A stretch of DNA of 64,000 bases, taken from NCBI GenBank assembly GCA_035548835.1, contig DASZSB010000155.1:20929-84928 (forward strand), written 5' to 3'. Under the pieces are notes generated by a model that saw nothing but the letters and a program-made list of their open reading frames with translations, did no database searches and was not told the DNA's origin. Source of the stretch: Gammaproteobacteria bacterium. Lineage in GTDB: Bacteria; Pseudomonadota; Gammaproteobacteria; Steroidobacterales; Rariloculaceae. How positions within the stretch are numbered: the first letter of the stretch is position 1; every line of letters begins with the position of its first letter. Below are positions 53,810-63,396 of this stretch, piece by piece. Position numbers and translations under genes: made by a program.

Positions 53810-54559
53810 ATGTGTCTCGTGGTCGTCGCACGCGCGGCAACGGCGCGCTACCCGCTCGTGATCGCGGCGAACCGCGACGAGCGGCATGCGCGGGCCACGC
53901 GACCGGCCGGCTGGTGGCCCGAACCGCCGGGCTTGCTCGGCGGCCGCGACCTCGCCGCCGGCGGCACCTGGCTCGGCGTGGACCGGCGCGGGCGGATTGC
54001 CGCCGTCACGAACGTGCGCGACGGCACGCCGCGCGAGGCAGCGCCCTCGCGCGGTGGCCTCGTGACGAGCTATCTAGGCAGCGATTCAGCGGCCGCCGAG
54101 TTCGCGACGGCGCTCGACGCTGCCGCCGGGAGCTTCGCGGCGTTCAACCTGCTGCTCTGGGACGGCACGGACCTGCGCTACGCGAGCAATCGCGCGCCGG
54201 CCGCAGTGCTCGGCGCCGGCGTGCACGCGCTCAGCAACGCACCGCTCGGCGTGGAGTGGCCGAAGACCGCGACCGCGCGCAGCGGCGCGACGCGACTGCT
54301 CGCGAGCAGCGACCCGGTCGGCGGCCTGTTCGACCTGCTCGCGATGCGCAGCGCCGCCGCGACAGCCGAGGAACGCTATCGCAGCGCTCACTTCGTCATG
54401 GGGCCCACGTATGGCACGCGCTGCTCGACCGTGATCCTGGTCGACGCCGCGGGTACGGTGACGTTCGCGGAGCGCTCGTTCGACGAGGCGGGCGAGCCTA
54501 CGGGGGAAGTGCGCGAGACGTTCGCCGTCGCGCCGGAATCAGGCAACGCGCCTCGCTAG
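53810..54559 (+). CDS. NRDE/TANGO2-family protein
   Basis: MCL, AANRDE, RDLAAGGTWLG, TNVR, YGTRCSTVI. Confidence 0.92.
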   Translation: MCLVVVARAATARYPLVIAANRDERHARATRPAGWWPEPPGLLGGRDLAAGGTWLGVDRRGRIAAVTNVRDGTPREAAPSRGGLVTSYLGSDSAAAEFATALDAAAGSFAAFNLLLWDGTDLRYASNRAPAAVLGAGVHALSNAPLGVEWPKTATARSGATRLLASSDPVGGLFDLLAMRSAAATAEERYRSAHFVMGPTYGTRCSTVILVDAAGTVTFAERSFDEAGEPTGEVRETFAVAPESGNAPR

Positions 54560-55210
54560 CCACACCGCGATCGCGGCGATCTCCTCCACGCACACGCTGT
54601 GCGGCATGGGGTACACGTGGAACTCCACGGCGTAGCCCAGCGCCTCGAGCGTACGCCGCGAGCCTTCGGCGAGGGCCAGAGGCAGCAACGGGTCCGCCGT
54701 GCCGTGCGCCAAGAAGATCGGCACGCCGGCATTCGCGGCGCTGCGCTCGGCCGGCAGCGTCTCGCCGAGCGGCAGGTAGGTCGACAGCGCCATGACGCCC
54801 GCGAGCGGCCGCGGCTCGCGCAGCGCCGCGTGTAGCGCTATGGCCCCGCCCTGCGAAAACCCGGCCAGCACGATGCGCGACGCCGCGATGCCGCGCGCGA
54901 TCTCGCGATCGATGAGCCGCGTGACGGCGGCCGCGCTCTCGCGGATGCCCGCCGCATCCTGCTGCACGTTCAATCCGAACCCCACGATGTCGTACCAGGC
55001 GCGCATCTCCATGCCGCCGTTCACGGTGATCGGGCGAATCGGCGCATGCGGAAAGATGAAGCGCGCGGGGAAGCGCAGACCGAGCTCCGGCACGATCGGC
55101 TCGAAGTCGTGGCCGTCGGCGCCGAGTCCGTGCAGCCAGATGATCGCGAGCTCGGGGGAGTCGCCGGTGGCGATTTCGACGGTCGGAAGCAGCGGCGGAG
55201 TCGAGCTCAT
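54539..55210 (-). CDS. Phospholipase/carboxylesterase
   Basis: WLHGLGADG, MRAWYDI, GFSQGG, HGTADP, MPHSV. Confidence 0.93.
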   Translation of the reverse strand: MSSTPPLLPTVEIATGDSPELAIIWLHGLGADGHDFEPIVPELGLRFPARFIFPHAPIRPITVNGGMEMRAWYDIVGFGLNVQQDAAGIRESAAAVTRLIDREIARGIAASRIVLAGFSQGGAIALHAALREPRPLAGVMALSTYLPLGETLPAERSAANAGVPIFLAHGTADPLLPLALAEGSRRTLEALGYAVEFHVYPMPHSVCVEEIAAIAVWLARRVA

Positions 55211-55228: not shown

Positions 55229-55265
55229 ATTGCAAATTTGCGCATACGGCCTACTATATGCGCAA
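55229..55265. promoter_or_regulatory. Putative ArgR operator
   Basis: ARG-box-like ATTGCAAATTTGCGCATA (55229-46); inverted repeat TTGCGCATA / TATGCGCAA (55238-46, 55257-65). Confidence 0.55.
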
Positions 55266-55290
55266 TTTTTTCCACGGCCTTTTCGCGAAA

Positions 55291-55761
55291 ATGCCCACCG
55301 CGACTCTCGAACAGACCGAGCGGCGCCGAGCTATTGCCCGGCTCCTCGAGGATCACCCGATCCAACGGCAGGCACAGCTCGTCGAGCTGCTCAAGGCCGA
55401 GGGCTATCCGGCCACGCAGTCGAGTGTGTGCAGGGATTTGCGGGATCTCGGGGCGATCAAGCAGAAGAACGGTTACAGCTTGCCGAAGCCCGCCGAGGTA
55501 AGCAACGGCGAAACGTTGCAGGTCGTGGCGGAGTTCGTGCGCGACATCCGGCCCGCCGGGCCGAACCTGCTCGTCATCATGACCGAGGTCGGTGCCGCCC
55601 AGCGCGTCGCCGTCACGCTCGACCGCATCGGCTGGCCGGAAATCGTTGCGACGCTGTCCGGCGACGACACGATCTTCGTGGCCACCGAGAGCGCGAACCA
55701 ACAGCGCCGGCTGCGCAGCCGGTTACGACAACATCTGACTCTGAAGAAGGCATCTCCATGA
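55291..55761 (+). CDS. argR: Arginine repressor
   Basis: 156 aa; TQSSVCRDL HTH; TLSGDDTIF arginine-binding motif. Confidence 0.9.
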   Translation: MPTATLEQTERRRAIARLLEDHPIQRQAQLVELLKAEGYPATQSSVCRDLRDLGAIKQKNGYSLPKPAEVSNGETLQVVAEFVRDIRPAGPNLLVIMTEVGAAQRVAVTLDRIGWPEIVATLSGDDTIFVATESANQQRRLRSRLRQHLTLKKASP

Positions 55762-56963
55762 CTGCTGCTAAACCGATCGTTCTGGCGTTCTCCGGCGGGC
55801 TCGACACGTCGTTCTGCATTCCCTGGCTCAAGGAGACCTACAACCGCCCGGTCGTGACCGTCACGGTGAACTGCGGCGGCATCGACGCCGCGGCCGCGCG
55901 GCAACTCGAGGAGCGCGCGAAGGCGCTCGGCGCGGTGGAGCACCACCTGATCGAGGCGCGCGCGGAGTTCTTCGACAAGGTCTTGAAGTACCTGGTCATG
56001 GGCAACATCCGCCGCGGCAACATGTACCCGTTGAGCGTAGGCGCCGAGCGCGGGCTGCAGGCGAAGTACCTGGCGCAGCTGGCGAAGCAGCTCGGCTCGG
56101 ACACCGTGGCGCATGGCTGCACGGCCGCCGGCAACGACCAGGTGCGCTTCGAGATCGTGCTGAAGGCCGTGGCGCCCGAGCTCGTGATCCTCGCGCCCGT
56201 GCGCGATCACGCGTGGCAGCGGCCCGCGCAGGTCAAGTTCCTCGAGGAGCGCAAGCTGCCCGTGCCGACGCGCGGCTCTGCGTACTCGACGAACCGCGGC
56301 CTCTGGGGTGTGACGATCGGCGGCACCGAGACACTCGACTCGAAGGGCAGCATCCCCGAGTCGGCCTGGGTCCTGTCGGCAGGGGCGCTGGACAAACCGC
56401 TGCCGTTCAGTGAGGTCGAGGTCGAGTTCGAACGCGGCGTGCCCGTGGGGCTCGACGGCAAGCGGCAGGACGCGGTGACGCTGATCGAGACGCTCGAGGC
56501 CGTCGGTGCGAAGTACGGCATCGGCCGCGGCATTCACCTGGGCGACACGATCATCGGCACCAAGGGCCGGGTGGCGTTCGAGGCGCCGGCCGCGGAGATC
56601 CTCATCAACGCCCACCGCGAGCTCGAGAAGCTCACGCTGACGCTCACGCAGACGCAGGCGAAGGAGCCCGTGAGCCAGCTCTATGGGCAGCTGATCCACG
56701 AAGGCAAGCAGCTCGACCCGGCATGCCGCGACATCGAGGCGCTGTTCACGTCGTCGCAGGCGCGCGTGACCGGCAAGGTCCGCGTGCAGCTGCGGCCCGG
56801 CAGCCTGTTCGTGCTGGGCGTCACCTCGCCGCATTCGCTGATGGCCGCGAGCCGGGGCAAGTACGGTGAGGCGGCCGGCGAATGGACGGCGGCCGACGCG
56901 CTCGGTTTCTCCAAGATCATGGCGTTGCCCGGGATGTTCCACACCCGGGCCGGAGGGCAGTGA
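55758..56963 (+). CDS. argG: Argininosuccinate synthase
   Basis: LAFSGGLDTS, HGCTAAGNDQVRF, GRGIHLGDTIIGTKGRVAFEAP. Confidence 0.95.
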   Translation: MTAAKPIVLAFSGGLDTSFCIPWLKETYNRPVVTVTVNCGGIDAAAARQLEERAKALGAVEHHLIEARAEFFDKVLKYLVMGNIRRGNMYPLSVGAERGLQAKYLAQLAKQLGSDTVAHGCTAAGNDQVRFEIVLKAVAPELVILAPVRDHAWQRPAQVKFLEERKLPVPTRGSAYSTNRGLWGVTIGGTETLDSKGSIPESAWVLSAGALDKPLPFSEVEVEFERGVPVGLDGKRQDAVTLIETLEAVGAKYGIGRGIHLGDTIIGTKGRVAFEAPAAEILINAHRELEKLTLTLTQTQAKEPVSQLYGQLIHEGKQLDPACRDIEALFTSSQARVTGKVRVQLRPGSLFVLGVTSPHSLMAASRGKYGEAAGEWTAADALGFSKIMALPGMFHTRAGGQ

Positions 56964-56964
56964 C

Positions 56965-58038
56965 ATGCGCTCGGTACTGGTCGACAAGATCGCTTCGGTC
57001 GCGCTGCAAGCCGACTTGGGACAGGAGATCCGCGTCGCGGACGACATTCCGTGCGAGGAAGGCGTGTTGATCGCGTTCGAGGTACTGAACAACAAGTCGC
57101 GCTACAACACGATCGAGCTCACGAGCGGCCGCATGGCCGAGGTCAAGAAAGGCGACGTCGTGGTCGGCGCGCTCGGGCATCGCAAGGCGCTGTTCGGCTA
57201 CTCGGGCCACCTGCCGACCGAGCTCAAGCCCGGCGACATCGTGCAGCTGCTGAACTTGGGCGGCGTGGTCGGCATCTGCGACTCGATCAATCCGGCGCAC
57301 GGCGAGCCGTTCGACTGCCGCGTGCTCGGCGTCGTGCTCGACTTCCCGTATCTCGGCCAGCGCGTCGGCGTGCCGGCGCGCGTGGCGGCCGAGCCGCTGA
57401 AGATCGACGTGCCGCTCGTGAAGCACGGCGTGCCCGTGGTCGCCATCGCGGGCACCTGCATGAACTCCGGCAAGACGGCGGCCGCGTGCGCGATCGTGAG
57501 CCGGTTCCGGCACAACGGCATCGTCGTGGACGCGTTCAAGTCGACCGGCGTCGCGCTGCGCCGCGACATCCTGGCGATGGAAGATTCGGGCGCGCGCCAC
57601 GTGGCCATGTTCTCGGACTTCGGGATCGTGGCGACGACGTCGAAGAATGCGCCGGCGCTCACGCGCAATCTGTTGAACGAGCTCGGCGAGCAGAAGCCCG
57701 ACGCGATCGTGTTCGAGCTCGGCGACGGCCTGCTCGGCGCCTACGGCGTCGAAGCCATCCTGCGCGACAAGGAGGTCGTCAATTCGATCACGGCCATGGT
57801 GTTGTGCGCGAACGACCCCGTGGGTGCCTGGGGCGGCGCGAAGCTGCTGCGCGAGGAGTTCGGCATCGAGCCGACCGTGATCTCGGGGCCCGCCACGGAC
57901 AACCAGGTGGGGATCGACATCATCAAGGAACGCGCGAACGTATCGGCCTTGAATGCCATGACGCATGCGGCCGAGCTCGGCGACCTGCTGCAGTCCGCGA
58001 TCGGCCTGGGATCGCGGACCGCGAAGGCAAGCGCATGA
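56965..58038 (+). CDS. DUF1611-like P-loop protein within the arg operon
   Basis: 357 aa; KGDVVVGALG.R, GTCMNSGKT P-loop, KSTG, FELGDG; 1 nt after the argG stop and ATGA-coupled to argC. Confidence 0.7.
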   Translation: MRSVLVDKIASVALQADLGQEIRVADDIPCEEGVLIAFEVLNNKSRYNTIELTSGRMAEVKKGDVVVGALGHRKALFGYSGHLPTELKPGDIVQLLNLGGVVGICDSINPAHGEPFDCRVLGVVLDFPYLGQRVGVPARVAAEPLKIDVPLVKHGVPVVAIAGTCMNSGKTAAACAIVSRFRHNGIVVDAFKSTGVALRRDILAMEDSGARHVAMFSDFGIVATTSKNAPALTRNLLNELGEQKPDAIVFELGDGLLGAYGVEAILRDKEVVNSITAMVLCANDPVGAWGGAKLLREEFGIEPTVISGPATDNQVGIDIIKERANVSALNAMTHAAELGDLLQSAIGLGSRTAKASA

Positions 58039-59099
58039 GCGCGCCAAAGCCCGTTCCGACGATCGTGCTCGGCGGCTCCGGCTACGTGGCCGGGGAATTC
58101 CTGCGCCTGCTGCACGCGCACCCAGGCCTCTCGCTCGGCGGCGTCGTGTCGTCGAGCCAGGCCGGCGAGGCGGTCGCGAAGACGTTCCCGCACCTCGCAC
58201 CGGCGTTCCCGAACCATACGTTCGTATCGCTCGAGGCCATGATCGAGCGGCTCGGCACCGCGCCGAAGTGGCTCGTACTATCGGCCGCGCCGCACGGCGC
58301 CTCCGCCGGGCTGATCGACAAGCTGCTGACGGCGGGCGCCACCGCCGGCGTCGAGATCGTGGTCGTCGACGCTTCGGCCGACTTCCGCTTCCCCGAAGCC
58401 GAAGCCTGGGCGGCCGTGTACGGCCACCCGCATGCGACGCCGCAGCGACTCGCGGAATTCACGTGCGCCGTCCCGGAACAGCTGAAATCCGTCGACACGC
58501 CGCACGTGGCTCACCCCGGCTGCTTCGCGACCACGATGCTGCTGCCGATCGTGCCACTGGTGGCGCTCGGCGCGGCCGACGAGTTCTTCGTCAGCGCCGT
58601 CACGGGCAGCACGGGCGCCGGCCGCACGCCGCGCGATACGACGCACCATCCGCTGCGCCAGAGCAACATGTTCGCGTACCAGGCGCTGAAACACCGGCAC
58701 GAGCCGGAAGTGCGCTCGCTCATCAAGGCTGCGACCGGCCGCGACGTGGCGCTGAACTTCGTGCCGCACTCGGGGCCGTTCGCGCGCGGCATTCACGCGA
58801 CGATCTTCCTGAAGCCGAAGGAGCGTCTGACCGCGGCGCAGATCAACGATGCGCTGCGTGAGTACTATCGCGGCAGCGAGTTCGTGCGCGTGGAGGCCGA
58901 GCCGCCGAAGATGAAGGACATCGTGGCGACGAACTACGCGGCGATGCACGCCGTGGCGAACAACGACACGATTGCGGTGTTCTCCGTGACCGACAACCTG
59001 CTGAAGGGCGCCGCGGGTGGCAGCCTGCAGTGGGCGAACCGGTTGCTCGGGATGCCTGAGACGATGGGTCTGACTGCACCTGCAGCGGGGTGGTTGTAA
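58035..59099 (+). CDS. argC: N-acyl-gamma-glutamyl-phosphate reductase
   Basis: GGSGYVAGE, HPGCFAT, SAVTGSTGAG, HRHEPE, DNLLKGAAG. Confidence 0.93.
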   Translation: MSAPKPVPTIVLGGSGYVAGEFLRLLHAHPGLSLGGVVSSSQAGEAVAKTFPHLAPAFPNHTFVSLEAMIERLGTAPKWLVLSAAPHGASAGLIDKLLTAGATAGVEIVVVDASADFRFPEAEAWAAVYGHPHATPQRLAEFTCAVPEQLKSVDTPHVAHPGCFATTMLLPIVPLVALGAADEFFVSAVTGSTGAGRTPRDTTHHPLRQSNMFAYQALKHRHEPEVRSLIKAATGRDVALNFVPHSGPFARGIHATIFLKPKERLTAAQINDALREYYRGSEFVRVEAEPPKMKDIVATNYAAMHAVANNDTIAVFSVTDNLLKGAAGGSLQWANRLLGMPETMGLTAPAAGWL

Positions 59100-60274
59100 T
59101 GAGTGTCGCGACACACGAGATTGCCGCCGTCGGCGCGCATCTGAACGAGGTCTATCCCATGTTGCCGTTCACGCCCGTGCGCGGCACGGGCGTGTGGCTC
59201 GAGAACGCGGCCGGACGCCGCGTGCTCGATCTGTACGGCGGCCACGCCGTGGCCGCGCTCGGCTACGGTCACCGCGACCTGTCCGACGCGATCGCGCGGC
59301 AGAGCCGCGACCTCGTGTTCCAGACAAACGCGCTGCCGCTCAAAGTCCGCGACGAAGCGGCCGAGAAGCTCGCGGCTTTCGGCCCGCCGGGACTCGGTCG
59401 CGTGTTCTTCGTGAACAGCGGCGCGGAGGCCAACGAGAACGCCCTGCGCCTCGCGTTCCGGGTCACGGGCCGCACCAAGATCGTCGCGATGGAAGGCAGC
59501 TTCCACGGCCGCACGGCCGCGGCAGCGGCCGTGACGTGGGGCGCCGCGAAGTCCTGGTACGGCTTTCCGCGCGCGCCGTTCGACGTGCAGTTCGTGCCGC
59601 GCAACGACGCGCAGGCGCTCGCGGCGGCCGTCGACTCGAGCACGGCCGCCGTGATCATCGAGCCCGTGCAGGGGCTCGCGGGCGCGTTCGACTTCGCGCC
59701 GGACTTCCTGCACGCGATCCGCGCGGCCTGCGACAAGACCGGCGCGCTGTACATCATCGACGAGGTGCAAACCGGCATGGGCCGGCTCGGCGCCCCGTTC
59801 GGCGCGCAGCTCTACAACGTCCGGCCGGATCTCTTGACCGTCGCGAAGGGGCTCGGGGGCGGCTTTCCGTGCGGCGCCGTGCTGATGCCGCACGCCATCG
59901 CGTCGGAGCTCAAGGCCGGCGCGCTCGGCACGACGTTCGGCGGCGGGCCCGTAGCCTGCGCGGCGATCAAGGCCGTGATCGAGGTCATCGAGCGCGACAA
60001 GCTGCTCGCGAACGTGCGCGCGGTCAGCGACGCGATCCGTGCGAAGTGCGTGGTCGGCCCGGTCGAGAGCATCCAGGGGAAGGGCTTCCTGCTGGGGCTC
60101 AAGACGCGGCCGAAGGCCGCGGCCGTGCGCGACGCACTGCTGGCGCGCGACATTCTGGCCGGCACCAGTGCAGACCCGCACGTGCTGCGCCTGCTGCCGC
60201 CGCTCATTCTTTCGACCGAGCACGTCGAACGCCTGTCTGCCGTCCTGAAGGAGCTCACCGATGCGTCGCTTTAA
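59099..60274 (+). CDS. argD: Acylornithine aminotransferase
   Basis: LDLYGGHAV, NSGAEANE, FHGRT, DEVQTGMGR, AKGLGGG, TTFGG; TAATG coupling. Confidence 0.93.
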   Translation: MSVATHEIAAVGAHLNEVYPMLPFTPVRGTGVWLENAAGRRVLDLYGGHAVAALGYGHRDLSDAIARQSRDLVFQTNALPLKVRDEAAEKLAAFGPPGLGRVFFVNSGAEANENALRLAFRVTGRTKIVAMEGSFHGRTAAAAAVTWGAAKSWYGFPRAPFDVQFVPRNDAQALAAAVDSSTAAVIIEPVQGLAGAFDFAPDFLHAIRAACDKTGALYIIDEVQTGMGRLGAPFGAQLYNVRPDLLTVAKGLGGGFPCGAVLMPHAIASELKAGALGTTFGGGPVACAAIKAVIEVIERDKLLANVRAVSDAIRAKCVVGPVESIQGKGFLLGLKTRPKAAAVRDALLARDILAGTSADPHVLRLLPPLILSTEHVERLSAVLKELTDASL

Positions 60275-61262
60275 CGATCTCGCCGACTTCTCGAACGAGG
60301 AGATCAAGGATCTCATCGCTCTGGCGAACCGTCTCGACAGGAACCCCGAGCCGCGCGCGCTCGAGGGCAAGGTTCTGTCATTGCTGTTCTTAAGCCCGTC
60401 GCTGCGCACGCTGTCGTCGTTCCAGGCCGCGATGATCAGGCTCGGCGGCGGCGCCTTCGTGATCTCGCCGGACATGTCGATCCACGGGCTCGAGTCGCGC
60501 TACGGTATCGTCATGGACGGGGCGGCGGCCGAGCACGTGCGCGAAGCGATCCCGGTGATCGCCTCGTATGGCGACGCGATGGGCGTGCGCGCGTTCGCGC
60601 AGCGCAACAATCTCGCGCACGACCTCGCGGAAACGGACTTCAAGAACCTCACGAGCCTGATCGACAAGCCGTGGATCAACATGGAGTCGGCCAACGACCA
60701 TCCGTGCCAAAGCCTGGCCGACTGGAAGACGCTGGACGACCTCGGCATTCCGGAGAACGCCAAGTTCGTGCTGTCGTGGGGCTATCACCCGAAACCGCTG
60801 CCGCTCGCCGTGTCGGCGGCGACGATCCACATGGCGGCCAAGCGCGGCATGAACGTGGTGCACCTGCGCCCACCGGGTTTCGAGCTGCCACCGCAGATCA
60901 TGGACAAGGCACGCAAGGCCGCGGCCGCATCGGGTGGCAGTGTCACCGAGACCACGGACCGGCGCGAGGCGATGGAAGGCGCGCACGTGATCTACACGAA
61001 GTCGTATTCTTCGACGAAGTACTACGGCGACAAGCTCGGCGACCAGGCCCTGCGCGAGCAACTGGTCGGCACGTGGTGCGTCGACGAGCCGTGGTTCGCG
61101 AACGCGCGCCCCGACTGCCGCTTCATGCACTGCCTGCCGGTGCGCCGCGGCGTCGAGGTGTCGGACCGGATTCTCGACGGTTCGCGCAGCGTCGTGATCC
61201 AGGAGGCGCGCAACCGGTTGTACGCGCAGATGGCAGTGCTGTACCGCATGATGAAAGGCTGA
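60261..61262 (+). CDS. argF': N-acylornithine carbamoyltransferase (ArgF'), predicted succinyl-specific
   Basis: SPSLRT, MDG...EH, HPCQ, WGYHPKPLP, HCLPVRR diagnostic of the AOTC/SOTC family. Confidence 0.9.
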   Translation: MRRFNDLADFSNEEIKDLIALANRLDRNPEPRALEGKVLSLLFLSPSLRTLSSFQAAMIRLGGGAFVISPDMSIHGLESRYGIVMDGAAAEHVREAIPVIASYGDAMGVRAFAQRNNLAHDLAETDFKNLTSLIDKPWINMESANDHPCQSLADWKTLDDLGIPENAKFVLSWGYHPKPLPLAVSAATIHMAAKRGMNVVHLRPPGFELPPQIMDKARKAAAASGGSVTETTDRREAMEGAHVIYTKSYSSTKYYGDKLGDQALREQLVGTWCVDEPWFANARPDCRFMHCLPVRRGVEVSDRILDGSRSVVIQEARNRLYAQMAVLYRMMKG

Positions 61263-61267
61263 GGAAA

Positions 61268-62197
61268 ATGACGGCAAGACTCTCGACCAACGAACGGGCC
61301 ATCGTGATAACCGCTCTGCGGCACGCTCTGCCTTATCTCCGTGTCTTCAAGAACAAGGTCTTCGTGATCAAGGCCGGTGGCGACGCGTTCGTCTCGAACG
61401 AGACGACCCGCGCGCTCATGGAGCAGATCGGCATCCTGCACCAGGTGGGCATCCGCGTGGTGCTCGTGCACGGCGGCGGGCCGCAGTCCACGGCGCTCGC
61501 GAAGCGGCTCGGGCTCTCGACGCAGATGGTCGAGGGCCGGCGCGTCACGGATGCGCAGACGCTCGAAGTCTCGACCATGGTGCTGAACGGCGAGATCAAC
61601 ACGCGGATCGTCGCGATGTGCCGCGCGCTCGGCATTCCGGCCATCGGCATCAGCGGGGTCGACGGCGGCCTCATCAAGGCCGGCAAGCGCCCGCCGGTGC
61701 AGGTCGGCGACCAGACGGTCGACTACGGCTTCGTCGGCGACATCTTCGGCATCGATCCCAGCATCATCCTGAAGCAGCTCGACAACGACCTCGTGCCGAT
61801 CGTGAGCCCTCTGTCGGCCGACGATGGCGGCACACTGCTGAACATCAACGCCGACACGGTTGCCGCGATGATCGCCTGCGAGCTCAAGGCCGAGAAGTTC
61901 GTCATGGCCACGGGCACGCCGGGCATTCTCGAGTCGGTCGAGGATCCGCGCTCCCTGATCTCGTACATCGACCGCGCGGGACTGCGGCGGCTGCGCGACG
62001 AGGGCAAGATCTCGGGCGGCATGCTGCCGAAGGTCGCGGCCATCGAGCGCGCGCTCTCGGGCGGCGTGCCACGCGTGCACGTGATCTCGTACGCGCAGCC
62101 GGACAGCCTGCTGCTCGAGGTATTCACGAACGAAGGCACGGGCACGCTGGTTGTGAACGACACGAAGAACCTGCGGCCCGAGGAACAGGCGGGCTAG
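61268..62197 (+). CDS. argB: N-acylglutamate kinase
   Basis: ALPYL, IKAGG, VHGGGPQ, GRRVTD, LNINAD, GGMLPKV; no fused GNAT domain. Confidence 0.94.
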   Translation: MTARLSTNERAIVITALRHALPYLRVFKNKVFVIKAGGDAFVSNETTRALMEQIGILHQVGIRVVLVHGGGPQSTALAKRLGLSTQMVEGRRVTDAQTLEVSTMVLNGEINTRIVAMCRALGIPAIGISGVDGGLIKAGKRPPVQVGDQTVDYGFVGDIFGIDPSIILKQLDNDLVPIVSPLSADDGGTLLNINADTVAAMIACELKAEKFVMATGTPGILESVEDPRSLISYIDRAGLRRLRDEGKISGGMLPKVAAIERALSGGVPRVHVISYAQPDSLLLEVFTNEGTGTLVVNDTKNLRPEEQAG

Positions 62198-62199
62198 AG

Positions 62200-63396
62200 A
62201 TGGCACGCCTCTGGGACAAAGGGCTGCCGCTCGACGAGCGCATCCTGAAATTCACGGCCGGCGAGGATCACGTCCTCGACCAGCGGCTCGTGGCGTACGA
62301 CGCGCGCGCGTCGGTCGCGCACGCGCGCATGCTCACGAAGCAGGGCCTGCTGTCCCGGGCCGACTGCGAAGCGATCTGTGCCGGCATCGAGGCCGTCGCC
62401 GCGGCGCATGCCGCAGGCGAATGGCGGATCGAGCTCGCCGACGAAGACGCGCACAGCGCGCTCGAGCGGCGGCTCACGGAGCGCATCGGCCCGGCGGGCG
62501 GCCGCGTGCATCTCGGCCGCTCGCGCAACGACCAGGTGCTGGTCGCGCTGCGCCTGTATCTGCGCGACGCCATCGGCGATCTCGCCGCTGCAACCAACGG
62601 CGTGATCGCCGCGCTCGAGCGCGTGGCGACGGAGCAGGGTTCGATCGCCCTGCCCGGCTACACGCACATGCAACCCGCGATGCCGAGCTCCGTAGCGCTG
62701 TGGGCGCGCGGCTTCGCGACCGAGCTCGCCGACGACCGTGATGGCCTGAAGACCGTGCTGCGGCGCGTGCAGAAGAATCCGCTGGGTTCCGCCGCCGGCT
62801 ACGGCGTGCCGAACCTGCCGCTCGACCGCGAGGCCACACGCGCGGCGCTCGGCTTCGACAGCGTGCACGAGCCCGTGACGGCCGTGCAGCTCTCGCGCGG
62901 CAAGGCGGAAGCCTCGCTGCTGTTCGAGCTCGCGCTGCTGCTCGGCGACCTCGGGCGGCTCGCGTCCGATCTGCTGCTTTTCTACACGAGCGAGTTCGCG
63001 TACGTGACGCTGCCGGCCGAGATGACGACCGGCTCGTCGATCATGCCGCAGAAGCGCAACCCCGACGTGTTCGAGCTCGTGCGCGGCACGCAGTCGACCG
63101 TGGTCGGCGCCCTGAACGAGACGCTCGCGCTGACGGCCAAGCTCACCTCCGGCTACCACCGCGATCTGCAGCGGCTGAAGGCGCCGCTGTTCCGCAGCAT
63201 CGATCTCGCGACCGACGTGCTCGCGATCATGGCGCACGCGCTGCCGAACGTGCGGTTCCGGCCCGAGCACATCACGCTTCAGCCGGAGCTCTACGCCGCG
63301 GAACAGGCCAACGCGCTGGTCGTCAAGGAAGGCATCCCGTTCCGCGAGGCGTACAAGCGCGTCGCGGCACAGCTTGCGAAGGAGCGGAACAAGTGA
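62200..63396 (+). CDS. argH: Argininosuccinate lyase (short, 398 aa)
   Basis: GRSRNDQ, PGYTHMQPA, NPLGSAAG, GSSIMPQKRNPD, GYHRDLQ. Confidence 0.94.
   Translation: MARLWDKGLPLDERILKFTAGEDHVLDQRLVAYDARASVAHARMLTKQGLLSRADCEAICAGIEAVAAAHAAGEWRIELADEDAHSALERRLTERIGPAGGRVHLGRSRNDQVLVALRLYLRDAIGDLAAATNGVIAALERVATEQGSIALPGYTHMQPAMPSSVALWARGFATELADDRDGLKTVLRRVQKNPLGSAAGYGVPNLPLDREATRAALGFDSVHEPVTAVQLSRGKAEASLLFELALLLGDLGRLASDLLLFYTSEFAYVTLPAEMTTGSSIMPQKRNPDVFELVRGTQSTVVGALNETLALTAKLTSGYHRDLQRLKAPLFRSIDLATDVLAIMAHALPNVRFRPEHITLQPELYAAEQANALVVKEGIPFREAYKRVAAQLAKERNK

What the first reader, a model, noticed from the sequence alone, without database searches (positions are those of the whole stretch)
56965..58038. 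DUF1611-like P-loop gene in an arg operon lacking argA/argJ/argE: candidate new N-acylglutamate synthase or acyl-handling enzyme
Seen: argR-argG-X-argC-argD-argF'-argB-argH is tightly coupled (1 nt gap and ATGA overlap around X), and no GNAT, ArgJ or ArgE gene is in the operon or window; ArgB has no fused GNAT. X has GTCMNSGKT (57451-77). Known (from memory): an ArgF' route needs both glutamate N-acylation and acylcitrulline deacylation, and the DUF1611 protein DgcN was reported as a D-glutamate N-acetyltransferase. Inference: X supplies the missing first step (L-glutamate plus acetyl- or succinyl-CoA), or less likely the deacylation.
Basis: partly seen in the sequence, partly recalled or inferred. 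Interest (0 to 1): 0.88.

Follow-up and report, generated by a model that had tools for sequence, protein, structure and literature searches.

The report
Predicted P-loop N-succinylglutamate synthase gene
An unnamed two-domain P-loop protein locked between argG and argC most likely makes N-succinylglutamate, the first intermediate of arginine synthesis, in bacteria that lack the usual first enzyme. A 2024-2026 paper already predicts this for the same protein family, and nobody has tested it.

Summary
argR-argG-X-argC-argD-argF'-argB-argH is one tightly coupled operon. X (56965-58038, 357 aa) has the P-loop GTCMNSGKT at 57451-57477. ArgB has no GNAT domain. The 97%-complete genome has no ArgJ, no two-domain ArgA and no ArgE.

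The reading that X supplies the first step is well supported by comparative genomics:
- X lies beside arg genes in 85 of 85 genome loci checked, across two different gene orders, and in some loci as a minimal X-argC-argB cluster.
- All six X-bearing genomes in a 301-genome class sample lack both ArgA and ArgJ.
- The linked ArgF' always has Ala, Val or Pro at the acetyl/succinyl switch, which points to succinylated intermediates.

The idea is not new. GapMind 2026 (bioRxiv 2024; PLoS Genet, Nov 2026) predicts exactly this for the Steroidobacter orthologue and lists it as having no experimental evidence.

X is not a DUF1611/DgcN member. Its C-domain profile matches dethiobiotin synthetase better (hhalign 94.5% against 50%). 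It keeps all five BioD ATP/Mg/phosphoryl-transfer residues. Its N-terminal beta domain has no solved relative.

So an ATP-dependent ligation of succinate to glutamate is at least as likely as acyl-CoA transfer. The desuccinylase is still unassigned; DapE is the obvious candidate.

The parts
55258..55761 (+). argR, arginine repressor, first gene of the operon
   Evidence: Pfam Arg_repressor and Arg_repressor_C. ATGA overlap with argG.
55758..56963 (+). argG, argininosuccinate synthase (401 aa)
   Evidence: TIGR00032 302.5 bits, above cut-off 268.
56965..58038 (+). X, 357 aa: predicted N-succinyl-L-glutamate-forming enzyme. N-terminal all-beta domain (about residues 1-150) plus C-terminal BioD-like SIMIBI P-loop domain (about 155-345).
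   Evidence: Translation. AF2 model pLDDT 96.2, pTM 0.92. Foldseek and hhalign. Genomic context.
56965..57414 (+). N-terminal beta domain of X. Its most conserved charged residues are E51 (51/53) and R73 (52/53). No solved structural relative.
   Evidence: Domain model pLDDT 91.1. Foldseek against PDB: best E 0.85, TM at most 0.22. Conservation.
57451..57477 (+). Walker A P-loop GTCMNSGKT (G163-T171)
   Evidence: K170 in 53/53 and T171 in 52/53 diverse homologues. Aligns with BioD GTDTGVGKT.
57538..57567 (+). K192-S-T-G ... R200-D201. These are the equivalents of BioD Lys37 (KPVASG) and Asp54 (NxDAL).
   Evidence: hhalign alignment. PDB profile alignment to M. tuberculosis BioD. K192 in 53/53, D201 in 52/53.
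57715..57729 (+). E251-L-G-D-G, the Walker-B-like motif equivalent to BioD VEGAGG (Glu115)
   Evidence: hhalign. E251 in 52/53.
58035..59099 (+). [quoted passage not shown]
   Evidence: TIGR01850 271.9 bits, above cut-off 233.6. ATGA overlap with X.
59099..60274 (+). argD, acyl-ornithine aminotransferase
   Evidence: Aminotran_3 287.6 bits. Best NCBIfam models are the acetylornithine/succinylornithine transaminases.
60261..61262 (+). argF', N-acylornithine carbamoyltransferase with Ala90 at the acetyl/succinyl specificity switch (codon 60528-60530)
   Evidence: NF003384 310 bits, above cut-off 288. A90 aligns with E92 of X. campestris AOTCase, and the best PDB match is the E92A mutant 3l02. 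Ala in 61/61 related loci.
61268..62197 (+). argB, N-acylglutamate kinase, 309 aa, no fused GNAT
   Evidence: AA_kinase only. TIGR00761 212 bits.
62200..63396 (+). argH, argininosuccinate lyase (short form, 398 aa)
   Evidence: TIGR00838 308 bits, matching model positions 11-390 of 455.

Best explanation
X is the enzyme that makes N-succinyl-L-glutamate. This is the first, amino-protecting step of an arginine pathway that runs through succinylated intermediates: X, then ArgB, ArgC, ArgD, ArgF' (a succinylornithine carbamoyltransferase), a desuccinylase, ArgG and ArgH. X replaces the GNAT-type ArgA and the ArgJ that this lineage lacks.

Shown here:
- The operon.
- The absence of ArgA and ArgJ.
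- The conserved linkage of X to arg genes.
- The succinyl-type residue in ArgF'.
- The two-domain architecture of X.
- The conserved BioD-type active-site residues.

Inferred: the reaction itself. Two chemistries fit.
(a) My preferred reading, about 0.4 absolute. The BioD-like domain binds Mg-ATP through K170/T171, D201 and E251. With K192 it phosphorylates a carboxylate of free, symmetric succinate to succinyl phosphate. The alpha-amino group of glutamate, held by the conserved N-terminal beta domain (E51, R73), then attacks it. The products are N-succinylglutamate, ADP and Pi.
(b) About 0.3. The P-loop binds the phosphates of succinyl-CoA and the enzyme is a CoA-dependent transferase, as reported for the distantly similar DUF1611 enzyme DgcN.

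The final N-succinylcitrulline desuccinylase is not X. It is probably DapE, or another M20 enzyme encoded elsewhere.
For: 1. Gap. The genome is 97% complete and has no ArgJ, no ArgA over cut-off and ArgB without a GNAT domain.

2. Linkage.
- 80 of 80 loci from related species have X flanked by arg genes, and 51 show the full argR-argG-X-argC-argD-argF'-argB-argH order.
- Three other gammaproteobacterial families (43-45% identity) have the rearranged order argD-argF'-argB-argH-argG-X-argC and still keep argG-X-argC.
- Homologues at 32-33% identity sit as argG-X-OTCase and argH-X.

3. Step assignment. Seven loci carry a minimal (argR)-X-argC-argB cluster, which is steps 1-3 of the pathway.

4. 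Phyletic complementarity. In 301 genomes of the class, all six with an X orthologue (at least 43% identity) lack ArgJ and show only ArgB-level TIGR01890 hits. In the whole sample ArgJ is present in 213/301 and ArgA over cut-off in 188/301.

5. Succinyl route. ArgF' A90 aligns with E92 of X. campestris AOTCase, and the top PDB hit is the E92A mutant. The position is Ala in 61/61 loci and V, P or V in the distant families. E92A/P/S/V switches specificity to succinylornithine (Shi et al. 2007, as quoted in 10.1101/2024.10.14.618325).

6. Chemistry.
- The full-length AF2 model is confident (pLDDT 96.2).
- Foldseek top hits are SIMIBI P-loop proteins led by BioD.
- The family profile against PDB sequences gives BioD as best hit (E 8.5e-4), aligning the P-loop and K192 with BioD Lys37.
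- hhalign against BioD gives 94.5%, E 7.6e-8, over 173 columns. It aligns K170/T171, K192, D201 and E251 with BioD K15/T16, K37, D54 and E115.
- These residues are conserved in 52-53 of 53 diverse homologues.

7. The same functional prediction was reached independently in the literature.
Against: - There is no biochemical or genetic test of any family member. PMC13759103 Table 1 lists it as having no experimental evidence.
- The genome holds 20 GNAT-domain genes outside the window. One of them could be a stand-alone acylglutamate synthase.
- X-bearing genomes also lack a recognisable ArgE. Complementarity alone therefore does not separate step 1 from the deacylation step.
- For chemistry (a): all characterised N-acylglutamate synthases use acyl-CoA. 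DgcN is the only characterised enzyme of a similar fold class that N-acylates glutamate, and it is reported as an acetyl-CoA transferase. DUF1611 also keeps the two acidic residues (invariant D190 and E217 in A3). Only T171 and K192 distinguish X from it.
- Direct identity to A0A127FCT3 could not be computed because that sequence was not on hand.
Confidence: 0.75

Rival explanations
1. X is a succinyl-recycling transacylase. It would be a functional analogue of ArgJ that moves the succinyl group from N-succinylcitrulline (or N-succinylornithine) onto glutamate. That would fill both the ArgA gap and the ArgE gap at once.
For: No ArgE-type or AstE-type deacylase is recognisable in the genome apart from DapE. 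No M20 gene lies within 10 kb of X in the 80 related loci, and none was found beside X in the five other genomes checked. ArgJ is absent.
Against: A canonical Mg-NTP site (GKT, D201, E251, K192) has no role in an isoenergetic acyl transfer. No P-loop transacylase of this kind is known. DapE (529 bits) is a plausible desuccinylase, so the second gap does not need X.
Confidence: 0.07
2. X is the N-succinylcitrulline desuccinylase (the ArgE step), and an unlinked stand-alone GNAT does the first step.
For: The ArgE step is also unassigned. There are 20 GNAT genes elsewhere in the genome.
Against: The fold is a P-loop NTPase/ligase fold, not a hydrolase fold. The minimal clusters are X-argC-argB, which are early steps. 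An FR47-like GNAT that lies downstream of the arg cluster in seven related loci is absent from this genome. According to the GapMind paper, some homologues sit near plausible argE genes, which means both genes occur together.
Confidence: 0.05
3. X is an accessory or regulatory NTPase of the pathway, not a catalytic step. Examples would be a SIMIBI-type chaperone or assembly factor, or an arginine- or energy-sensing regulator of ArgB or ArgC.
For: Foldseek also matches HypB, SRP54/FtsY, MobB and FleN-type NTPases at similar E-values. Pfam and NCBIfam give weak MobB hits.
Against: X lacks the NKxD-type guanine motif. The BioD-specific Lys37 equivalent (K192) is invariant, and hhalign prefers BioD. 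An accessory role would leave the ArgA gap open in every X-bearing genome.
Confidence: 0.08

Closest known systems
[quoted passage not shown]
   Same: It is a hypothetical protein inside the arginine operon of Steroidobacter and related bacteria. The genome has no ArgA. The linked ArgF' has A/P/S/V at position 92. It resembles DgcN only remotely. Steroidobacteraceae-labelled MAGs carry 62-67%-identical proteins in the same operon slot as X.
   Different: This copy comes from a different, unnamed gammaproteobacterial lineage. The paper assumes an acyl-CoA-type transferase by analogy with DgcN. Here the profile evidence favours a BioD-like ATP site instead. Direct pairwise identity to A0A127FCT3 was not computed.
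Dethiobiotin synthetase BioD (TIGR00347; PDB 1dbs, 3fgn)
   Same: It has the same SIMIBI P-loop fold. It is the best sequence-profile and Foldseek match. X has conserved equivalents of K15, T16, K37, D54 and E115. BioD phosphorylates a carboxyl-type group with ATP and an amine then attacks it, which is the chemistry proposed for X.
   Different: X scores below every BioD model cut-off. It carries an extra beta domain of about 150 residues with no solved relative. Its P-loop is GTCM rather than GTDT. The genome has its own true BioD at C87. Substrates and pathway differ.
DgcN, D-glutamate N-acetyltransferase (DUF1611; PF07755 + PF17396; NCBIfam NF041892; PDB 7XRJ, 2OBN)
   Same: It is a P-loop protein of the same fold class that N-acylates glutamate. 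Foldseek to 2obn gives E 6e-6. There is a sub-threshold Pfam hit on the P-loop region.
   Different: hhalign gives only 50%. There is no NF041892 hit. DUF1611 has a Rossmann-like N-domain, whereas X has an all-beta one. The DUF1611 P-loop is GTDCxxGK[MKR], with no Ser/Thr after Lys and no conserved Lys37 equivalent. A near-threshold DgcN-type protein (472.7 bits on NF041892, cut-off 480) co-exists with an X orthologue in the same-order genome G023. DgcN acts on D-Glu in catabolism.
BT3761 / Cabys_1732-type GNAT N-acylglutamate synthase of Bacteroidota (PMC8121099, PMC7311316)
   Same: It has the same predicted reaction (N-succinylglutamate synthesis) and sits in an arg operon with argF'-type succinylornithine carbamoyltransferase.
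   Different: The fold is unrelated: GNAT against P-loop plus beta domain.
LysX/ArgX ATP-grasp ligases of the LysW carrier pathway
   Same: They are a precedent that the amino-protecting first step of arginine and lysine synthesis can be an ATP-dependent ligation to a free carboxylate rather than an acyl-CoA transfer (established knowledge).
   Different: The fold differs (ATP-grasp) and the acyl partner is a carrier protein. No LysW is present here.

Membership tests
[quoted passage not shown] | Sequence homology to ACG33_RS14135 (at least 30% of its maximum bit score) | tested here: inconclusive
   The reference sequence was not on hand. Indirect support: proteins from MAGs labelled Steroidobacteraceae or Steroidobacterales are 62-67% identical over the full length and occupy the same operon slot.
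[quoted passage not shown] | Gene embedded in an arginine biosynthesis cluster | tested here: met
   argG-X-argC with a 1-nt gap and an ATGA overlap. 85 of 85 related loci are arg-linked.
[quoted passage not shown] | No ArgA-type (or ArgJ) enzyme in the same genome | tested here: met
   Own genome. All six X-bearing genomes in the 301-genome sample lack both.
[quoted passage not shown] | Linked ArgF' has A/P/S/V at the position of X. campestris E92 | tested here: met
   A90 aligns with E92. Ala in 61/61 loci. V, P, V, A and A in five further genomes.
[quoted passage not shown] | Catalyses formation of N-succinyl-L-glutamate | not testable with these tools
   No member has been assayed (PMC13759103 Table 1).
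DUF1611 / DgcN | Scores above the Pfam PF07755 gathering threshold or the NCBIfam NF041892 cut-off | tested here: not met
   PF07755 gives 12.8 bits against a cut-off of 25, over residues 155-195 only. NF041892 gives no hit at E up to 1. A DUF1611 protein from G023 scores 472.7 bits on NF041892.
DUF1611 / DgcN | Rossmann-like N-terminal domain (PF17396) | tested here: not met
   The N-domain of X is all-beta and has no PDB structural match. There is no PF17396 hit.
DUF1611 / DgcN | Family motifs GTDCxxGK[MKR], TGQTG and EGQxS | tested here: not met
   X has GTCMxxGKT, KxTGV and ELGDG. hhalign probability is 50%.
Dethiobiotin synthetase (BioD) | Scores above the family model cut-off; single domain of about 225 aa | tested here: not met
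   No BioD model is listed for X in Pfam or NCBIfam. X is 357 aa with an extra N-domain. The genome's true BioD is at C87:12632-13141.
Dethiobiotin synthetase (BioD) | Catalytic constellation Lys15/Thr16 (P-loop), Lys37, Asp54, Glu115 | tested here: met
   hhalign aligns K170/T171, K192, D201 and E251 to them. They are conserved in 52-53 of 53 homologues. The residue roles in BioD are from memory of the BioD literature.
SIMIBI-class P-loop NTPase fold | Parallel-sheet P-loop domain structurally similar to BioD, SRP54, HypB and MinD | tested here: met
   Foldseek: 176 PDB hits at E up to 0.001, led by BioD, SRP54/FtsY, DUF1611 and HypB.
GNAT-type N-acylglutamate synthase (ArgA, ArgA-B fusion, BT3761 type) | GNAT acyl-CoA-binding domain | tested here: not met
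   X has no GNAT hit. Its fold is a P-loop plus a beta domain.

The most novel reading that the evidence does not exclude
X is a CoA-independent, ATP-dependent succinate-L-glutamate ligase (ADP-forming). A BioD-type P-loop domain would phosphorylate free succinate. A previously unseen beta domain would present the alpha-amino group of glutamate. The committed step of arginine synthesis would then be an acyl-phosphate ligation rather than an acyl-CoA transfer. The succinate released at the citrulline stage would be re-used directly. The wider family, with members next to RimK ligases in archaea and next to ABC exporters in other gammaproteobacteria, would be a new class of N-acyl-amino-acid ligases.
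Probability: 0.4. Interest if true: 0.75.

Novelty: new member of a known kind. Interest (0 to 1): 0.5.

Why it matters
Arginine biosynthesis is a textbook pathway, and every characterised N-acylglutamate synthase is a GNAT-type enzyme or ArgJ. A P-loop enzyme doing this step would be a third, unrelated solution. It would close a real annotation gap for a large group of soil, sediment and marine Gammaproteobacteria. Relatives were confirmed in at least 596 stretches of a scan of one genome per species, and the family spans about 1,400 clusters at 50% identity.

If the reaction turns out to be ATP-driven ligation of free succinate, it would change how the energetics and regulation of the committed step are understood. 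It would also define a new ligase family with an uncharacterised substrate-binding fold.

Credit for the functional prediction belongs to the GapMind 2026 paper. What remains open, and directly testable, is the activity itself, the acyl donor and the identity of the desuccinylase.

Tried and rejected
- Sequence search of X against the PDB found nothing.
- Pfam and NCBIfam gave only sub-threshold hits: EF-G_D2, DUF1611_C, MobB.
- DUF1611/DgcN membership was rejected after hhalign, motif comparison and the N-domain fold.
- I looked for a desuccinylase:
  - The best M20 in the genome is DapE itself.
  - No AstE/AspA family member is present.
  - No M20 gene lies within 10 kb of X in 80 loci.
- An FR47-like GNAT lies downstream of the arg cluster in seven related loci, five of them X-argC-argB mini-clusters. 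I checked it as a possible hidden ArgA. It is absent from this genome, so I dismissed it here.
- Paralogues at about 30% identity occur in ArgA+/ArgJ+ gammaproteobacteria. They belong to a different module (ABC exporter plus porin) and are not evidence about arginine synthesis.
- The first attempt at search for related loci with the 53-sequence alignment failed because it was too diverse. I repeated it with 11 sequences.
- The DgcN paper (PMC10030869) is not held, so its mechanism could not be read.
- The 7XRJ match reported by GapMind was not among the top 50 Foldseek hits listed. The DUF1611 structure 2obn was at rank 7.
- Model coordinates are not exposed to scripts, so I could not do a pocket or ligand-geometry analysis.
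Full report
**1. Observation**

The ORF at 56965-58038 (+) translates to a 357-residue protein, P0001, without stops. A GGAGG sits 8 nt upstream of the ATG (sequence).

The flanking genes were identified with Pfam and NCBIfam:

| Gene | Coordinates | Note |
|---|---|---|
| argR | 55258-55761 | |
| argG | 55758-56963 | |
| X | 56965-58038 | |
| argC | 58035-59099 | |
| argD | 59099-60274 | |
| argF' | 60261-61262 | NF003384 310 bits, cut-off 288 |
| argB | 61268-62197 | 309 aa, kinase domain only |
| argH | 62200-63396 | |

The junctions are overlaps, or gaps of 1-5 nt. X is separated from argG by one base and overlaps argC by ATGA.

The window lies in a 4.35-Mb, 68.6% G+C assembly that is 97.4% complete. 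In that genome:
- No ArgJ is present.
- TIGR01890 (two-domain ArgA) finds only ArgB's kinase domain and two generic GNATs, all below cut-off.
- TIGR01892 (ArgE) finds nothing above cut-off.
- Of 20 GNAT-domain hits, none is in the window.

**2. What X is**

No Pfam or NCBIfam model reaches its cut-off. The best are EF-G_D2 (17.9 bits), DUF1611_C (12.8 bits, residues 155-195 only) and MobB. A sequence search of the PDB finds nothing.

The family is nevertheless large:
- More than 7,900 cluster representatives at 90% identity. Every name that a source gives among those listed is 'hypothetical protein'.
- 1,415 clusters at 50% identity with E up to 0.001.
- A capped scan of one genome per species confirmed relatives in 596 stretches, and there are more.

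An alignment of 53 diverse full-length members (A1, 28-63% identity) has P84, G169, K170 and K192 invariant. S11, E51, R73, T171, D201, D218, E251, Y260, D284 and G308 are near-invariant.

AlphaFold2 on this alignment gives a very confident model (pLDDT 96.2, pTM 0.92). It has an all-beta N-terminal domain (about residues 1-150) and an alpha/beta P-loop C-terminal domain.

Foldseek against the PDB matches only the C-domain, to SIMIBI-class P-loop proteins. Dethiobiotin synthetase is first (1dbs, E 3.2e-6), followed by SRP54/FtsY, the DUF1611 structure 2obn (rank 7, E 6e-6) and HypB.

The N-domain was modelled alone (pLDDT 91.1). It has no structural relative in the PDB (best E 0.85, TM at most 0.22).

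**3. Is it DUF1611/DgcN-like?**

NCBIfam NF041892, 'N-acetyltransferase DgcN', is a DUF1611-family model. A DUF1611 protein from a same-order genome (G023) scores 472.7 bits on it, just under its 480-bit cut-off.

X is not a member, for these reasons:
- It does not hit NF041892 at all.
- Its N-domain is not the Rossmann-like DUF1611_N.
- Its motifs differ: GTCMxxGKT / KxTGV / ELGDG, against GTDCxxGK[MKR] / TGQTG / EGQxS.
- G023 carries both that DgcN-type protein and an X orthologue, so the two families co-exist.

I built profiles from eight gammaproteobacterial DUF1611 proteins (A3) and fourteen BioD proteins (A4) and compared them with A1 using hhalign:

| X family (A1) against | Probability | E-value | Aligned columns |
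|---|---|---|---|
| DUF1611 (A3) | 50% | 1.6e-4 | 120 |
| BioD (A4) | 94.5% | 7.6e-8 | 173 |

The X family profile searched against PDB sequences also puts BioD first (3fgn, E 8.5e-4) and lists no DUF1611 entry at E up to 10.

The BioD alignment superposes:
- K170/T171 on the BioD P-loop Lys and Thr.
- K192 on the Lys of BioD's KPVASG.
- D201 on the Asp of NxDAL.
- E251 on the Glu of VEGAGG.

From my knowledge of the BioD literature, these are K15, T16, K37, D54 and E115. They are the ATP/Mg ligands and the lysine that assists phosphoryl transfer to the substrate's carbamate. In the X family they are conserved in 52-53 of 53 sequences.

DUF1611 keeps the two acidic residues. It has no Ser/Thr directly after the P-loop Lys and no conserved Lys37 equivalent.

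**4. Genomic evidence for the function**

(a) *Linkage.* In the 80 best genome loci (62-93% identity; MAGs labelled Gammaproteobacteria, Steroidobacteraceae, Woeseiaceae, Ca. Rariloculus and others), X is next to arg genes in every one. 51 show the complete argR-argG-X-argC-argD-argF'-argB-argH order, and the rest are mostly cut by contig ends.

(b) *Minimal clusters.* Seven loci have only (argR)-X-argC-argB. With X as step 1, that is the first three steps of the pathway.

(c) *Rearranged operons.* Three further gammaproteobacterial families with 43-45%-identical X have the order argD-argF'-argB-argH-argG-X-argC, with argR divergent in two of them. They still keep argG-X-argC.

(d) *Distant homologues.* Metagenomic homologues at 32-33% identity sit as argG-X-OTCase and argH-X.

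(e) *Phyletic complementarity.* In a 301-genome sample of the class, six genomes carry an X orthologue (at least 43% identity): G000, G023, G238, G030, G087 and G242. All six lack ArgJ and show only ArgB-level TIGR01890 hits (E 1e-30 to 1e-46, below cut-off). In the whole sample ArgJ is present in 213/301 and ArgA over cut-off in 188/301.

(f) *Paralogues.* Thirteen genomes carry only a paralogue at about 30% identity. These genomes do have ArgA-type matches far stronger than ArgB-level and also have ArgJ. In the three paralogue loci examined, which include the second copy in X-bearing G238, the gene precedes an ABC exporter and a phosphate-type porin. This sets the boundary of the arg-linked orthologous group.

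**5. Which acyl group?**

Phmmer of ArgF' against the PDB aligns its Ala90 (within VMDGAAAEH) with E92 of Xanthomonas campestris N-acetylornithine carbamoyltransferase. The best-scoring entry is the E92A mutant 3l02.

According to Shi et al. 2007, as quoted in the GapMind paper, E92A/P/S/V converts that enzyme to a succinylornithine carbamoyltransferase. The position is Ala in 61 of 61 related loci and V, P, V, A and A in five further genomes. The pathway therefore most likely runs through N-succinylated intermediates.

**6. The other gap**

N-succinylcitrulline must be desuccinylated.
- The genome's best M20 enzyme is a clear DapE (NF009557 529 bits, cut-off 284).
- Two other M20 proteins are a secreted one and a dipeptidase-like one.
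- There is no AstE/AspA family member.
- No M20 gene lies within 10 kb of X in 80 loci.

N-succinyl-diaminopimelate and N-succinylcitrulline are both N-alpha-succinyl L-amino acids of similar size. E. coli ArgD already serves both pathways. I therefore infer that DapE is the most economical candidate. This was not tested.

**7. Mechanism**

The functional assignment (X makes N-succinylglutamate) rests on context, complementarity and fold-class precedent. I put it at about 0.75.

For the chemistry, two options remain.

The literature assumes an acyl-CoA transferase, by analogy with DgcN.

The evidence gathered here instead shows a complete, strongly conserved BioD-type Mg-ATP/phosphoryl-transfer site. 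BioD, and from established knowledge its relatives CobB/CobQ and the CTP synthase synthetase domain, phosphorylate a carboxyl-type oxygen with ATP and then let an amine attack. Applied to X, this gives succinate + ATP -> succinyl phosphate, then attack by the alpha-amine of glutamate -> N-succinylglutamate + ADP + Pi.

Succinate is symmetric, so either carboxylate serves. It is released again at the citrulline stage. The LysW pathway shows that an ATP-dependent ligase can perform the amino-protecting step (LysX/ArgX). I rate this ligase reading at about 0.4 and the CoA-dependent reading at about 0.3.

Against the ligase reading: every characterised ArgA uses acyl-CoA, and DgcN, of a similar fold class, is reported as an acetyl-CoA enzyme.

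**8. Prior knowledge and novelty**

A full-text search found that the same functional prediction is already published. [quoted passage not shown] It concerns ACG33_RS14135 / A0A127FCT3 of Steroidobacter denitrificans.

The arguments there are arg-operon linkage, non-co-occurrence with ArgA, a weak Foldseek match to DgcN (7XRJ), and A/P/S/V at ArgF' position 92. Table 1 of the paper marks it as the one new enzyme without experimental evidence. No other paper in the library mentions the family.

Earlier follow-ups in this scan reached the same reading on orthologues in other genomes. I treat those as leads, not as support.

This gene is therefore a new member of an already predicted, still untested family.
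- An independent replication of the genomic arguments.
- The boundary between orthologues and paralogues.
- Failure of DUF1611 membership.
- The BioD-type active site.
- The finding that the N-domain has no solved relative.
- DapE as the desuccinylase candidate.

**9. Verdict**

Its 'new candidate' claim is pre-empted, and its DUF1611 label and acyl-CoA donor are questionable. Interest is moderate (0.5). A textbook step would be carried out by an unrelated fold, possibly with unexpected chemistry, and it is directly testable. The central idea, however, is already in print.

Noticed in passing
L088/L089 8001-9029 and L093 7001-8047, L094 1234-2280 (archaeal-type contigs): X-family homologues at 30-31% identity lie on contigs with archaeal ribosomal genes. 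In L093/L094 the homologue overlaps the start of a RimK-type ATP-grasp ligase gene. All four loci also carry a convergent RimK-type ligase, a 270-279-aa unknown and a Peptidase_C39_2 protein. L088/L089 also have an AstE/AspA-type deacylase just upstream. The combination resembles the N-acetylaspartate / NAAG logic (acyl-amino-acid synthase, RimK-like ligase, aspartoacylase). It suggests the wider family N-acylates acidic amino acids.
   Followed up: partly
L097 6082-7176 (-), L098 6002-7132, L099 6190-7248: A paralogue family (28-34% identical to X) occurs in gammaproteobacteria that do have ArgA and ArgJ. In these three loci it is followed by a fused ABC exporter (ABC_membrane + ABC_tran) with a phosphate-selective porin (Porin_O_P) further downstream; L098 and L099 have a gene of about 297 aa of unknown function in between. 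G238 carries both this paralogue and an X orthologue. Function unknown.
   Followed up: partly
G023:C28:29956-30549 (L102) and G023:C3:138134-138727 (L108): A same-order genome carries two DUF1611 genes alongside its X orthologue. The L102 copy, the one scanned, scores 472.7 bits on NF041892 'DgcN' (cut-off 480). This fits a published report that Woeseiales are carriers of dgcN (PMC12363236) and shows the two families are distinct.
   Followed up: partly
window 62200-63396: ArgH is only 398 aa. It matches TIGR00838 positions 11-390 of 455, so the C-terminal ASL_C2 region seems to be missing. Orthologues in related genomes align over the same 1-392 span. A distant metagenomic arg cluster (L090) has an ArgH with ASL_C2.
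   Followed up: no
G000:C222:157-1194 (L001): The only close ArgE/DapE-type M20 enzyme in the genome is a clear DapE (529 bits). It is the simplest candidate for the unassigned N-succinylcitrulline desuccinylase, in the way E. coli ArgD serves both the arginine and lysine pathways.
   Followed up: partly
L031 14322-15059 (also L030, L035, L037, L048, L052, L053): An FR47-like GNAT gene is conserved downstream of the arg cluster in seven related loci, about 2-4 kb past argB in the five with the X-argC-argB mini-cluster. It has no homologue in this window's genome, so it is probably synteny rather than part of the pathway.
   Followed up: yes
window 53810-54559 (+) and 54539-55210 (-): Just upstream of the operon are a TANGO2/NRDE-family protein and a convergent phospholipase/carboxylesterase (Abhydrolase_2). 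Their 3' ends overlap by about 20 nt. There is no evident link to arginine synthesis.
   Followed up: no
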